From the NCBI RefSeq assembly GCF_009914755.1, contig NC_060925.1: 64,000 nt of DNA. One strand, given 5' to 3'. This document shows positions 12,535-57,930 of the stretch, piece after piece. The stretch's first letter is position 1. Every line of letters begins with the position of its first letter. The DNA is from the human T2T-CHM13v2.0 reference genome, Homo sapiens. The notes under the pieces were generated by a model, which saw nothing but the letters and a program-made list of their open reading frames with translations, was not told where the DNA came from and did no database searches. A program made the translations under genes and the position numbers.

Positions 12535-12971
<437 letters not shown>

Positions 12972-29357: not shown

Positions 29358-29718
<361 letters not shown>

Positions 29719-45239: not shown

Positions 45240-45677
<438 letters not shown>

Positions 45678-48679: not shown

Positions 48680-49658
48680 TTAAATTAATTTTTTTAACTA
48701 TCATTTCTATTTCTCATTTACAATCTCTACCACCTTCCCTTATGGTTAAATTGTGTGTGTGTGTGTGTGCACGTGCATGCACATGCTCACGCGTGCACAC
48801 CTACACCTTGGTAAGCCAAAGAATGTTTATGTTTCTATGGTCATACCTACTTATTTCTGTTAAATAGCATTCTGTTGTGAGTCTTATACTCTTTGTTAAT
48901 ATAACTTTTAAACAAAAATGATTTCAGTTGCATATAATCACATATTTTCCTATTTCAAAACGTTCCATATTTTTATGCAGCCCTCCTCCACGTTTTACTG
49001 TCCATTTCCCGTAAGTAGACGTATAAGTTGCCTTTATCTAAATGCTAGCAAAAATGTTGCTTCCGTGAATGTTTCTGTACACGAGTCTAATTAAACCGAG
49101 CAAGCATTTCTGGGGTATAAGGATTTTAACTGCAGATCACAATATATACTTATATTCAATTTTATTTTATGTTTCCATATTTATTTCCATAATGACTTTT
49201 CTGATTAAACTGTTTTCAGCATTATACACATTTCAAAGTCTCTACATATTCACCAAATCATTTATACAATCAAACTTCATGTTTTGCTAACCATACAAGT
49301 ATAAAATGGTTATTATTTACATTTATGTTTGTATGATTACCAATGAAATTGTCAGACATTCATGTGCTCCATGTATGAACTGCCTCTTTATATACTTTGT
49401 CCATTTTTCCCCATTGGATTTTGTATTTCATCTCATTGATTTGAGGATAGATATTTCTATCAATTATTTAATCTTATATTATTTTAAACTGTTTTAAATA
49501 TAAATAACAAGTGATAGATGTTATCACAATCTATTACTTCTCAACTTTTTTGTTGGTATCCTGTGTTAAGCTGAACTCCTTGATCTTAATGTAGTAAAAT
49601 AATAGGTATTTTTTATCCAAATTTTCCTTTTTTGAGATCTTGTTTTAAGAAAATCTTT
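48680..49658 (-). mobile_element. Old L1ME, host of the DHX29 retrocopy (left part)
   Basis: Degenerate antisense L1 (TATGAACTGCCTCTTTATATACTTTGTCCATTTT) continuing across the TSD. Confidence 0.6.
48752..48800. repeat. (TG)n followed by a mostly alternating purine-pyrimidine tract
   Basis: TGTGTGTGTGTGTGTGTGCACGTGCATGCACATGCTCACGCGTGCACAC. Confidence 0.8.
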
Positions 49659-52600
49659 TTTTGTTCTAATTCAACAAATGTTTATTAAATACTTACTGTG
49701 TGTCAAGTATTATCCTAGGCATCCTTTTTTTCCAAAATAAATAAACCTGTTACAGTTATCCATGACTCTGAGAGAGTGAGCTATACTAAGAATTACCTCT
49801 AGGGTGAACAGTAACGTTCTATTATTTGAAAATTCCTCTGGCAATATATGATTTCAGAATGATAACCTCTTTCCTGTCGTGCTTTCTTCCATCCTAGATA
49901 TGCATTGTAGATGATCAGGTGGTCTGAATCCACCATGGCCAAAGCTGATTTTGCAAGATCTGCATCATCTTTTCAACCAATTGGTGTGGTAAAAGGAGAC
50001 TTCTCTGTTATAACTGCAGCTAGTGTTGCCACTGGGTCAAGGCAGCCAAATACTGTACCAAAAATAAGCGTCTTGCCAGTCTTGACATACACAGGTAAAG
50101 CTGCAAGGTGTTGGCCCAACGGAGTCAGCTGAGGCTCATTTAGCTTACAAGCTCCAGTTTTTTGGAGGAAATTCATTGAATGGCTGATCACTGGGAGCTG
50201 AGGCGGATCTAAGGCTTTGAAAAGGATATCTTCAGGAGAATCATGATTACACCTCATAATATGAAGGCATAATTTCTCTAAAGGTACATGTAAGATTTCA
50301 GGAACAGAATAATCCATAAAGCCTTCATATTTTTCTCTTGTGTACCCCCAGAAGCAGAAGCCATCTCTGTCCTGCCCAGCTCTCCCCTCGCACTGCAAAG
50401 CACTGGCTTTACTGACAAATGTCTCAACCAAAGAACTCATCTATCTGCTTTCATGGCTCTTATTTTCTTCTGTTTTTCCAGTATCAATTACAAACTCAAT
50501 ATCTGGAATAGCGCTACCCGTCTCTGCAAAATTTGTTGCTAAAACAATCTTTCTGACTTCTGCAGGAGGAAGTGTGAGTGCTGCAGCTTGACCTTGGGTT
50601 GAAAGAACAGAATACAGAGCTATCCATTTATACCGTTCAGAATAAAACCTTTTATCATTTGATAGGAGATCATACAACTGCTGAATATGAGCAAGGCCTG
50701 GTAAAAAGATTAATACTGCTCCTTCAATATTTCCGACTTGGGAACTTTTATCTAAATACGCAAGAAGTTCTAAAATGAAATCCAGGTTGATTTTATGAGG
50801 ATTCAAGTGTAGAGAATAGCATGCTGAGTGAAGTTGCTGTACTTTTGGTAGAATAGATTTAAATCAGCATTTGCTCTAGTCTGAACTGAAATATATTCTT
50901 GATTTTTTTTGATCCCCCTGCTTTGCTTGTAACATTAATGGTTATTTCTTCTTCCTTCTCCAGAAATTTCTGACAATATCCTGATTCTTTTTCCTGTACA
51001 AAGTCTGTTTCTTCTATTATATCTTCATGTTGAAAAGCCTCAGCAGAATAACTTCTTCCTGAAATCCTGAGAGTGGGGCAGTGTGTGAAATATGTGGAAA
51101 ATTTTTCACTGTCCACAGCGGCACTCATAGAATCAAGTAGAGATCAGAATGTTTTTGTAAAACTTCCTTTAAGACAGTTAGTAGGAAGTCTGACTGGACA
51201 CTTCTTGTACGAACCTCATTTGCAATAATGTGAGACACATTAGTAAAAAGACCATCTTCTTGAAGTTTCCTTGACAAAACCCCTGTTGTACAGTAGAGTA
51301 CACTGGTAGATTCACAAGCTTCAGATAACATCCAGATCTGATATCCACACAAAGAATTCCTTCCTCCAGTTCCATTTTCACAGCCCAATTCATCACACAC
51401 TCTGGTGGCTAAACTCACTGCTGAGATCCTTTGAGGTTAGGTATAGGCAATGTTACATTTACTTGCTCCCCACTCATTTAGAAGCAAATCTTCCAACAGA
51501 AAATGTGGTACCTGAGTACTTTCATCACTCCTGGTTTTACCTGCCACAACCACTCCCCAGTGCCTTTAAGAGTTTCTACACCTGCATCCAGATGTTTAAA
51601 TACAGGAAACTGCTGTCTTTCCTTTAGAAGTCTCTAAGACTTAGGTGTGCTTTGCAACTTTCTAAAGAGGTTTCTAACATGTTCCAAATCTTCCGCATTT
51701 GCTGATACCAAGGACAGTGCAGAAAAATCCTCATCAGAAACTAAATTTTCCCAAGATTCCTCAGGATTATTAGAGATTTCTCTCTTATTTTCAGAATGTT
51801 GTTGTCGCTGCTGTTTCAATATATTCAAAAGTTGGGCAATAAAAAGATCACATGGTTTATTGGTTTTCATTTTATTTAATTCTTCTCTTTTCTTTTCCTC
51901 ATCACTGTACTCCAGCCAAACATCTTGGGAAGTAGGATGAAGTCACTGATAAACTGACTGCCCTTTAACTAAATGATAAAGAACTAAAGTGCCTCCCAGG
52001 TGCTGAGCTTGCATGCCATCCTCTGTTAAGATTGTAGGCAACCTACCAGGACAGCATCTTCAGACTTGATTACCCTAACCCTACATTTCCAGCATCTACC
52101 TACTGGAACTTTTTCAAAGGAAGGATTTCGACTTTTGGGAAGAGTCTTCCTGAACCAGTCAATCAGAAATTGTTTGGGAGATTTTCCAGTTCAGCGTTGA
52201 GCAGTACAGTCAAAATTTCTTACATCATGAGGTTCTTTTTATCTTTCTCTTCTTCAGTAGCAGCTGCAGATTTTTCAAATAACTGAAAAGTTCAATGCAC
52301 TTTCTCCTTCTATGGCCACAGGAGGCTTTTTTTCTTTCATTTTGTTGATGTGAAATCTTTATGGCTGGATTAAATACTGGATCATCTTCTAAAGTTTCAA
52401 TTTCTCTTTGAAATTTCCTTATTTTTTCCTGAGCCTCCTTTTGGTCTTGCTTGTTTTTTTTTTTTTTTTTTTTTGTTTTTTTTTTTTTTTTTTTTTTGTT
52501 TTTTTTTTCCAGTTTAAAGGCAGCTGCTGGCTCCTTTGCATCTAGCAGTTTTGCTGCAAGATGTAAATAACTTTCGTTGGGGTCAATTTTTTTTTTCCTA

Positions 52601-53466
52601 TTCTTCTAAACTTTTAGAATTCTCATTCTTTTCTTCTTCATTTGTTGTTTAGTGTACTGTGAAATCCACTCTTTCATATTTGCTTCCATATTTCCTTCTT
52701 CCTTTTTTGGCTTCATCTTAGGGTCTTATTCTTTTGTTTGTTTGTTTTGTTTTAGGTTGCAATGGAGGTGAAATAGTGCTTTGTATAGGAGACTGCAATT
52801 TCAGCCTACTTTTAGGTTGTTGCCCTTCAAATTCTTAACTGAATCTTTCAGTGCATCATTTGCAAGGTTTAAACAGAGCCAATCCAAGGCAGAATGAAGG
52901 TCACCTCCATGTAAGAGAGCATTGGTCGTGACATCTTCAATGTCTTAGTCTTAAATAAAAATGCTTGTAAAGCTGTGTAAAAATCCTGCAATTTTTTGGC
53001 ATTAAGTCTTCCAGAAATCACTCCCTTGTCATTGTTTTGCTTGTCATTGCTCACTCCCATAATTCCTTGCTCTAATTTGTTATTAATTACCACTTTCAAC
53101 ATAGATTTACCCAGACTTGCAGGACAACCAGAATCATTTGTAGAATTAAAACTATAAATTTTGGGGCCTTGCTTGACTCAGGGCTCCCTGGTGCTTGCAG
53201 CGGTGTCGGGAGGGAGGCCTGGACACCGGCTTTTTGTTTTGGGCCTCCTGGGCAGTTCCAGCCCCAGTGGTTGATTTGGCTCTGAAAGCAGACATGGCGG
53301 CCCGGACCACCGGACCACCGTGGTCACCAGAGCCATGTGTTTCTTGTCCTTGCCGCCAGTGTTGCAGCTGTGGCAGAAGATCATTCGCGGTGCAGGCCCT
53401 GGTGCTGCCACCAAGAGCTCTTCACATTTCCTGGCTCCTGTGACACCACCCTGCGCCCTCGATTCC
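49659..53466 (-). pseudogene. DHX29: Processed pseudogene (retrocopy) of DHX29, DExH-box RNA helicase 29; 5'-complete, ends in putative intron-derived sequence
   Basis: Collinear, intron-less ORF fragments match DHX29: GGKDKKH..VVR (N-term), LKVVINNKLEQ, ESWENLVSDEDFSALSL, RVCDELGCENG, NPHKINLDFILELLAY, SSLVETFVSKASALQ..GRAG, EKSPFTTPIG. Many stops and frameshifts. Start codon lost (ACT at 53358-53360). AATAAA at 49681-49686 (-), A7 at 49656-49662, TSD AAGAAAA[T/G]CTTT at 49647-49658 and 53467-53478. Confidence 0.96.
49681..49686 (-). terminator. Polyadenylation signal (AATAAA) of the retrocopied transcript, within an L2-like 3' end
   Basis: Minus strand reads CCTAGGATAATACTTGACACACAGTAAGTATTTAATAAACATTTGTTGAATTAGAAC-AAAAAAA. 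The hexamer is 18 nt upstream of the A-run and TSD. Confidence 0.8.
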
Positions 53467-54000
53467 AAGAAAAGCTTTCCTGAAAGAAGGTAACAAACAT
53501 ATCTTCTTGTCTTTCCTTCTTTATGTTTTTTACTTGCCATATATGAGTCTGCTTTGTGTATCTTGCAAATTAGCTATTCTGCTTTACTTTTCTCCATGTC
53601 ATGGATCTGTTTTTACAGCAGTACGCACTAAACAATGTTTCCCCACTGGTGTCTCCTTTCATCTATATGATATTCACATGGATCTATTTCTGAAACCTCT
53701 GTTCTGTTCCATTTATTTGTTTGGGGCTAGAGCATCATAGTTTGATAACTATTGTTTAGTTGCATTTCTTAAAATCTGGCAGGATAAGTCCCCTCCTCTT
53801 TTAAACAAAATTGATTTAGATATTTTGACATTTAATCTTTCATAAAATTTTTACTCCTTGAACCATCTTGCTGAAATTTATCTTGACATTGCAGTGGTTT
53901 TATAAATAATCTGGGTGCAATTATGTTTTTAAAGAAGACAAATTTTGTCTTTAACCTTATTCTTCTTTTATCTATTTTGGTTTAGATTTTTATTCTTTTG
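53467..54000 (-). mobile_element. Old L1ME, host of the DHX29 retrocopy (right part)
   Basis: GGATCTATTTCTGAAACCTCTGTTCTGTTCCATT...ATCTGGCAGGATAAGTCCC antisense L1 ORF2 tail. Confidence 0.6.

Positions 54001-57310: not shown

Positions 57311-57930
<620 letters not shown>

What the first reader, a model, noticed from the sequence alone, without database searches (positions are those of the whole stretch)
49647..49830. DHX29 retrocopy appears to be a fossil of an intronically polyadenylated, truncated isoform
Seen: on the minus strand the coding match runs to AAT AGA ACG TTA CTG TTC ACC CTA GAG (NRTLLFTLE). It then continues as GTAATT (GAG|GTAATT, a 5' splice-site-like junction at 49797/49796, phase 0), 134 nt of non-CDS sequence, AATAAA, 18 nt, an A7 run and the TSD. 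Knowledge (recalled): canonical DHX29 continues ...LLTLE-DVKQEL for roughly another 190 aa, including the OB-fold. L1-mediated retrocopies normally truncate at the 5' end, not the 3' end. Inference: the template mRNA had all upstream introns spliced out but ended at a poly(A) site just inside this intron. A short DHX29 isoform was therefore expressed in the ancestral germline or early embryo.
Basis: partly seen in the sequence, partly recalled or inferred. Interest (0 to 1): 0.82.

Follow-up and report, generated by a model that had tools for sequence, protein, structure and literature searches.

The report
DHX29 retrocopy ending inside intron 23
This dead chromosome 1 copy of the helicase gene DHX29 was made from a spliced messenger RNA that was cut and given its poly(A) tail just inside intron 23, a tidy example of a known kind of genomic fossil.

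Summary
On the minus strand the DHX29 pseudogene runs from 53466 to ...CTA GAG (49797). It continues as GTAATT..., AATAAA (49686-49681), 18 nt, an A7 run and a 12-nt target-site duplication.

The human genome was searchable. The copy matches 23 DHX29 exons on chr5 in order, with all 22 introns between them removed. The last match runs without a break from exon 23 through 129 nt of the following intron, then stops at a CA. There the parent continues with a GU-rich stretch and has no A run, so the A's in the copy were added to the RNA.

LLTLE|DVKQ is a true exon boundary, residues 1175|1176 of 1369. The missing exons encode the OB domain.

Added here: the poly(A) signal lies in an old dispersed repeat, MIR/L2-like by recall. 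Today's parent reads AGTAAA where the copy and three other repeat copies read AATAAA. No other DHX29 retrocopy was found.

One RNA molecule is proven, not an abundant or functional isoform. This is a new member of a known kind, of modest interest.

The parts
53467..53478 (-). 5' copy of the target-site duplication (AAAGCTTTTCTT)
   Evidence: It abuts the first base homologous to DHX29 exon 1 and matches the 3' copy at 11 of 12 positions.
49797..53466 (-). Retrocopy body: DHX29 exons 1-23 joined without introns, heavily decayed (longest open stretch 155 aa)
   Evidence: There are 24 collinear matches on G000:C5 56134984-56094319, with exon 7 split in two by an A-rich tract; the piece 50440-49973 aligns to DHX29 residues 962-1116.
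49791..49799 (-). Unspliced 5' splice site of intron 23 (GAG|GTAATT), identical in the parent
   Evidence: The exon boundary is confirmed.
49663..49796 (-). 134-nt tail derived from the start of DHX29 intron 23
   Evidence: It is collinear with C5:56094447-56094319, with 19 mismatches in 129 aligned columns plus 6 gap columns.
49663..49720 (-). Part of the tail that is a dispersed repeat (MIR/L2 3'-end-like; the family name is recalled, not assigned by a tool)
   Evidence: three further copies on G000:C6 match only this part. PMC2553571 describes AATAAA in MIR/L2 3' ends.
49681..49686 (-). Poly(A) signal AATAAA (the parent now reads AGTAAA)
49662..49663 (-). CA cleavage site, the last bases shared with the parent
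   Evidence: After this CA the parent reads TTTGTGATTGT... and the copy reads A's.
49656..49662 (-). A7 run: one templated A, a poly(A) remnant, and possibly the start of the target-site duplication
49647..49658 (-). 3' copy of the target-site duplication (AAAGATTTTCTT)

Best explanation
LOC647132 is an L1-type processed pseudogene of DHX29.

Its template was a capped DHX29 transcript that was full-length or nearly so at the 5' end. Introns 1-22 had been spliced out. The 5' splice site of intron 23 (GAG|GTAATT, non-consensus at +5) had not been used. The RNA was instead cleaved at a CA about 129-135 nt into intron 23, 18 nt downstream of an AATAAA supplied by an old MIR/L2-like repeat, and was polyadenylated there. 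This is a 'composite terminal exon' type of intronic polyadenylation.

The RNA was reverse-transcribed into chromosome 1 in a germline or early-embryonic cell and produced a 12-nt target-site duplication. The date is tens of millions of years ago, from about 0.08 substitutions per site per lineage.

Translated, such an RNA would give DHX29 residues 1-1175 (N-terminal region, RecA1/2, winged-helix and ratchet domains) plus a short intron-encoded tail. It would lack the OB domain and the C-terminal helix.

Shown here: the collinearity, the exon boundary, the untemplated A's, the target-site duplication and the missing OB exons.

Inferred: the cell type, the date, and that the hexamer was AATAAA in the parent at the time.

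I think it more likely (about 65:35) that the site was a weak, occasionally used one than that it made a regular, selected isoform.
For: 1. One search gave 44 matches: 1 self, 24 collinear matches in the DHX29 locus on C5, 16 to an A-rich tract and 3 to the repeat. Query ends abut from exon to exon, so every intron between the 23 matched exons is gone.
2; the last block runs from exon 23 straight into the intron for 129 parental nt and stops at CA. The parent then reads a GU/U-rich stretch with no A run. The A's are therefore post-transcriptional, and priming on an encoded A tract is excluded.
3; the exon boundary lies at residues 1175|1176.
4; the target-site duplication is 11 of 12, abuts both ends of homology, and is matched by 2 of 20000 controls.
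5; homology to DHX29 exon 1 begins right after the 5' duplication.
6; the Kimura two-parameter (K2P) distance is 0.101 for exons 2-23 (315 of 3365 sites differ) and 0.165 for the intron tail (19 of 129). Fisher P is 0.047, or 0.015 against non-CpG exon sites. This is expected if both copies of the tail drift while the parental exons are constrained.
7; 4 of 5 aligned repeat copies, the retrocopy among them, read AATAAA. Only today's DHX29 intron reads AGTAAA.
8; nothing from the parental region holding exons 24-26 is in the window. All 31 hits fall in four Alu-like places.
9; exon 24 starts the Pfam OB_NTP_bind domain (32.1 bits, cut-off 29.5).
10. (passages of PMC2553571): MIR and L2 3' ends carry AATAAA and seed poly(A) sites.
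Against: - The poly(A) remnant is very short (3-6 untemplated A's) and the target site reads GG|AAAG rather than the L1 endonuclease consensus TT|AAAA.
- No present-day use of this site was found. The IPAFinder supplements contain no DHX29 entry (3 files searched, 1 not). The one DHX29 site in the Singh et al. 2018 table retains 0.485 of the coding region, not the 0.858 expected here. That table lists only differentially used sites.
- The parental tail shows no sign of constraint: higher divergence than the exons and a weakened hexamer. This argues against a selected isoform, though not against the origin of the retrocopy.
- The intron sample is small. The 95% interval of the mismatch fraction is 0.09-0.22.
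- The direction of the hexamer change rests on parsimony with three unrelated repeat copies, not on outgroup DHX29 sequences.
Confidence: 0.9

Rival explanations
1. The template was an intron-23-retaining or unspliced pre-mRNA. Reverse transcription started internally, for example on an encoded A-rich stretch, so no poly(A) site was used in the intron.
For: The poly(A) remnant is only 3-6 A's. Intron-containing retrocopies are known (review PMC5470649, passages).
Against: At the junction the parent reads CA|TTTGTGATTGT with no A run. The only A run inside the tail (49732-49726) was not the end point. The end lies 18 nt after a canonical hexamer, at a CA, and upstream of a GU-rich stretch. That is a full poly(A)-site architecture.
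Confidence: 0.05
2. The retrocopy was originally complete to the canonical 3' end. It lost exons 24-27 by a later deletion or rearrangement, and the tail is pre-existing chr1 sequence.
For: None specific. MIR-like repeats are everywhere, so the last ~60 nt alone could be local.
Against: The first part of the tail (about 76 nt by coordinates), which begins exactly at GT, matches only DHX29 intron 23 in the genome. The target-site duplication directly follows the A run. No exon 24-26 sequence is in the window.
Confidence: 0.01
3. The intron-23 site made a regular, abundant and possibly functional OB-less DHX29 isoform in the ancestral germline, rather than an occasional premature-cleavage product.
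For: It is the only DHX29 retrocopy found, so the one RNA captured was the short form. The ancestral hexamer was probably the strong AATAAA. The stop codon lies in the terminal exon, so nonsense-mediated decay would not be expected (inference). DHX29 does use another intronic poly(A) site today.
Against: One retrocopy is one molecule. The parental tail has diverged faster than the exons and its hexamer has decayed. No record of the site was found in the two IPA data sets that could be searched, and no paper joins DHX29 with 'intronic polyadenylation' (0 papers).
Confidence: 0.3

Closest known systems
L1-mediated processed pseudogenes (retrocopies)
   Same: Intronless copy on another chromosome, an A run at the 3' end, flanking target-site duplication, many disabling mutations.
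   Different: The copy is complete at the 5' end and short at the 3' end, with an unspliced piece of intron as its terminal sequence. The usual pattern is 5' truncation with a complete 3' UTR (review PMC5470649, passage).
Processed pseudogenes used as fossils of alternative transcripts (Shemesh et al. 2006, PNAS 103:1364)
   Same: The same logic: a retrocopy preserves the structure of a transcript variant present in the germline.
   Different: I saw the paper only as a reference-list entry. It is not held, so what it covers is recalled. I could not check whether this DHX29 case or 3'-end variants are listed in it.
Intronic polyadenylation, composite-terminal-exon type
   Same: Read-through of a suboptimal 5' splice site, then hexamer, CA and a GU-rich downstream element within the intron. 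The result is a C-terminally truncated protein. DHX29 has another intronic site in the Singh et al. 2018 supplementary table (PMC5928244).
   Different: Here the evidence is a genomic fossil, not RNA data. The site lies only ~130 nt from the splice site. The present human hexamer is the weaker variant AGTAAA.
Poly(A) sites seeded by MIR/L2 3' ends (Lee, Ji and Tian 2008, PMC2553571)
   Same: The AATAAA sits in a dispersed repeat whose other copies keep the same hexamer. The paper reports AATAAA and TGTA in MIR/L2 3' ends and 444 MIR-associated human poly(A) sites (37 conserved and 407 non-conserved; passages and Table 1).
   Different: No tool assigned the repeat to a family, because no repeat library is available. 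The name is recalled.

Membership tests
L1-type processed pseudogene | Parental introns precisely removed | tested here: met
   24 collinear matches, equal to 23 exons, abut in the copy.
L1-type processed pseudogene | Untemplated poly(A) at the 3' end | tested here: met
   an A7 run where the parent has one A followed by TTTGTG. The remnant is short, 3-6 A's.
L1-type processed pseudogene | Target-site duplication flanking the insert | tested here: met
   11 of 12 match abutting both ends; 2 of 20000 controls do as well.
L1-type processed pseudogene | L1 endonuclease target motif (TT|AAAA, recalled) | tested here: inconclusive
   the site reads GG|AAAG. The A-rich start fits the motif, but the upstream dinucleotide does not.
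Intronic polyadenylation transcript (composite terminal exon) | Sequence continues from the exon end into the adjoining intron of the parent | tested here: met
   one block across the boundary covering 129 parental nt. prove the boundary.
Intronic polyadenylation transcript (composite terminal exon) | Hexamer 10-30 nt upstream of a cleavage site, with a GU/U-rich element downstream in the gene | tested here: met
   AATAAA, 18 nt, CA. The parent continues TTTGTGATTGTACTTCTTTCTT.
Intronic polyadenylation transcript (composite terminal exon) | Direct RNA 3'-end evidence at the site today | tested here: inconclusive
   no DHX29 entry in the 3 IPAFinder supplementary files that could be searched; 1 file was not searched; the only DHX29 row is another site (RetainedCDR 0.485). 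PolyA_DB, PolyASite and long-read data are not available here.
MIR/L2-derived poly(A) site | The hexamer lies in a dispersed repeat with the same hexamer in other copies | tested here: met
   three other genomic copies align over this part and all read AATAAA.
MIR/L2-derived poly(A) site | Assignment to the MIR or L2 family by a repeat library | not testable with these tools
   No Dfam or RepeatMasker library is available. The name rests on recall and on the description in PMC2553571.

The most novel reading that the evidence does not exclude
A MIR/L2-derived AATAAA 110 nt into DHX29 intron 23 once drove regular production of an OB-less, 1175-residue-plus-tail DHX29 in the primate germline. 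The site has since been weakened to AGTAAA in the human lineage, so the chr1 pseudogene would be the only surviving record of a lost helicase isoform.
Probability: 0.2. Interest if true: 0.45.

Novelty: new member of a known kind. Interest (0 to 1): 0.3.

Why it matters
It is a clean, fully traceable case of a retrocopy preserving a prematurely polyadenylated transcript. Exon boundary, hexamer, cleavage CA, untemplated A's and target-site duplication are all readable.

It shows three things:
- DHX29 could be terminated just inside intron 23 in heritable cells.
- The signal came from an old repeat.
- The parental signal has probably since changed from AATAAA to AGTAAA.

It also shows that the RefSeq pseudogene span (49796-53463) stops at the exon end. 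The span leaves out the informative 134-nt tail, the A run and the duplication.

The biology is expected rather than surprising. Retrocopies as transcript fossils, intronic polyadenylation and repeat-derived poly(A) sites are all established.

Tried and rejected
- Shemesh et al. 2006 could not be read.
- Literature searches:
  - 'DHX29' with 'intronic polyadenylation' gave 0 papers.
  - 'processed pseudogene' with 'intronic polyadenylation' gave 10 papers (9 listed), none on this topic judging by title and abstract start.
  - 'DHX29' with 'polyadenylation' gave 46 papers. Of the 20 listed, none dealt with DHX29 3' ends judging by title and abstract start. The one opened (PMC10931711) only names DHX29 in passing.
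  - 'LOC647132' occurs in 3 papers, all association or expression studies judging by their listing.
- Present-day use of the site: nothing in the IPAFinder supplements. The Singh et al. table lists only another DHX29 site.
- Other DHX29 retrocopies, which could have shown the same or the canonical 3' end, were sought. Exon 24 alone and the last 1.7 kb of the fetched chr5 stretch matched only themselves. I did not locate the last exon, so it is recalled rather than shown that those 1.7 kb cover the canonical 3' UTR.
- Rejected readings: later deletion, local origin of the tail, and internal priming. The reasons are given under the rival explanations.
Full report
**What is in the window**

Read on the minus strand, the DHX29-like sequence starts at 53466, directly after AAAGCTTTTCTT (53478-53467). 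It runs as a much-decayed coding copy to ACC CTA GAG (49805-49797). The longest open stretch is 155 aa.

After that come, in order:
- GTAATT (49796-49791)
- AATAAA (49686-49681)
- 18 nt ending in AAC (49680-49663)
- seven A's (49662-49656)
- AAAGATTTTCTT (49658-49647), whose first three A's overlap the run

Only the '134 nt' needs rewording. It is the whole tail, 49796-49663, of which 110 nt precede the hexamer.

The two 12-mers match at 11 of 12 positions. In 20000 random pairs of 30-nt stretches 3.8 kb apart in this window, an equally good match in the abutting position occurred twice, and anywhere in the 30 nt 27 times.

**Comparison with the parental gene**

The window's own genome (human, 24 contigs) can be searched. 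The 191 nt around the junction gave 5 matches:
- the window itself
- one block on contig C5 (56094475-56094319, 83% identity) covering window 49824-49662
- three short matches on C6, all confined to the last ~60 nt of the tail

The whole copy gave 44 matches:
- 1 self match
- 24 collinear blocks on C5 between 56134984 and 56094319
- 16 matches to an A-rich lysine-coding tract
- the same 3 repeat matches on C6

The 24 blocks are 23 exons, because exon 7 is split by the A-rich tract. Their ends abut in the copy, so all 22 introns between the matched exons were removed.

The last block is different. It starts at the 3' splice site of exon 23 (...ttatctag|ATGGAAG) and passes the exon end ...CTAGAG|GTAATTCTTA. 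It continues for 129 parental nucleotides and ends at TTAG(A/T)ACA. Beyond that CA the parent reads TTTGTGATTGTACTTCTTTCTT, while the copy reads A's and then the duplicated target sequence.

At the 5' end, homology to the GC-rich first exon begins immediately after the 5' duplication.

**The exon boundary**

The chr5 reading frame gives ...NFLNRTSLLTLE at the exon end. An open piece beginning DVKQELIKLV... lies 4.2 kb downstream, preceded by ...caatctag.

Against the Protein Data Bank, the first piece is DHX29 residues 1145-1175 and the second is residues 1176-1276 of a 1369-residue chain. A piece of the retrocopy aligns to residues 962-1116.

LLTLE|DVKQ is therefore a phase-0 exon junction, and 194 residues are missing from the copy.

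Exon 24 begins the Pfam OB_NTP_bind domain (32.1 bits, cut-off 29.5). The retrocopy keeps the HA2 winged-helix and ratchet parts. PMC8682770 gives the domain order RecA1/2, WH, ratchet, OB, and mentions a C-terminal helix (passages).

Two more downstream coding exons were located on chr5. A BLAST of that 10-kb parental region against the window gave 31 hits. All fall in four Alu-like places (about 12.5, 29.5, 45.5 and 57.5 kb), and none involves the exons.

**How it arose**

The simplest account has four steps:
1. A DHX29 transcript had introns 1-22 spliced out.
2. The intron-23 donor was not used. This donor, GAGGTAATT, is identical in copy and parent and is non-consensus at +5.
3. Cleavage and polyadenylation took place at the CA 18 nt after the hexamer.
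4. L1-type target-primed reverse transcription inserted the RNA into chr1.

The A's are untemplated, because the parent has no A run there. This excludes priming on an encoded A tract in an intron-retaining RNA.

The hexamer, the CA and the GU/U-rich downstream stretch in the parent make a complete poly(A) site.

Heritability requires a germline or early-embryonic cell. This follows from established knowledge and was not tested.

**Age and selection**

The Kimura two-parameter (K2P) distance between copy and parent is 0.101 for exons 2-23 (315 differences in 3365 aligned sites). For the intron tail it is 0.165 (19 in 129, plus 6 gap columns). The difference has Fisher P = 0.047, or 0.015 against non-CpG exon sites.

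This pattern is expected if the parental exons are constrained while both copies of the tail drift. It gives about 0.08 substitutions per site per lineage. With recalled primate neutral rates of 1-2 x 10^-9 per site per year, that is roughly 40-80 million years. This is an inference only.

The same pattern offers no sign that the parental tail has been under selection.

**The poly(A) signal**

The last ~60 nt of the tail belong to a dispersed repeat. Three other copies align, and all read AATAAA where the retrocopy reads AATAAA and the present DHX29 intron reads AGTAAA (4 of 5 sequences have AATAAA).

Parsimony says the parent carried AATAAA when the RNA was made and changed to AGTAAA later.

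The repeat looks like the 3' end of MIR/L2. This is recalled; no repeat library is available. Lee, Ji and Tian 2008 report that these ends carry AATAAA and TGTA and seed many poly(A) sites, and that MIR was active about 130 million years ago (PMC2553571, passages). That is older than the retrocopy, as the account requires.

**The predicted product**

In the present parent, the frame reads through the donor for 39 codons to a TGA nine bases before the cleavage CA. The hexamer would therefore be inside the coding tail, and the 3' UTR would be about 9 nt.

The stop lies in the terminal exon, so nonsense-mediated decay would not be expected (inference). The protein would be residues 1-1175 plus the tail, without the OB domain.

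**What is not shown**

One retrocopy is one RNA molecule. I found no other DHX29 retrocopy. I did not locate the last exon, however, so a 5'-truncated copy made only of the canonical 3' UTR is excluded only if the 1.7 kb searched covers that UTR. That coverage is recalled.

I found no present-day record of the site:
- The three IPAFinder supplementary files that could be searched hold no DHX29 entry. A fourth file was not searched.
- The differential-usage table of Singh et al. 2018 has one DHX29 intronic site retaining 0.485 of the coding region. By the exon map that is after exon 11, whereas the site described here would retain 1175/1369 = 0.858.
- That table lists only differentially used sites, so the absence is weak evidence.

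No paper joins DHX29 with 'intronic polyadenylation'.

**Verdict**

The finding is a well-documented new example of known phenomena:
- retrocopies as fossils of transcript variants
- intronic polyadenylation
- repeat-derived poly(A) sites

It is useful as an annotation correction, because the RefSeq span stops at 49796. It also gives a specific, testable hint of an OB-less DHX29 transcript. It would not surprise a specialist.

Noticed in passing
window 49647-49796: The RefSeq pseudogene span (49796-53463, from the hub's table) ends at the exon 23 boundary. It omits the intron-derived tail, the A run and the 3' target-site duplication. At the 5' end it starts 3 nt inside the homology, which begins at 53466.
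   Followed up: yes
window 52460-52499 (between the two exon 7 matches): The A-rich, lysine-coding tract of exon 7 is about 38 nt longer in the retrocopy than in the parent. The two BLAST blocks map to overlapping parental coordinates. This tract alone gave 16 of the 44 genome matches.
   Followed up: partly
window 53167-53456: The exon 1 part of the copy is far more diverged (76.6% identity, 24 gap columns) than the other exons (83-96%). This probably reflects decay of a CpG-rich 5' end after it lost promoter context.
   Followed up: no
G000:C5, between the exon 11 and exon 12 matches (about 56108823-56110510): Singh et al. 2018 (PMC5928244, supplementary file 1) list a different intronic poly(A) site in DHX29. 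It retains 0.485 of the coding region, and its usage is 0.05 versus 0.28 in one cell-type comparison. DHX29 therefore does make truncated transcripts today.
   Followed up: partly
window about 12540-12835, 29414-29718, 45333-45643, 57392-57913: Four Alu-like repeats share 70-88% identity with Alus in the DHX29 introns. They are the only matches between the downstream part of DHX29 and the window.
   Followed up: no
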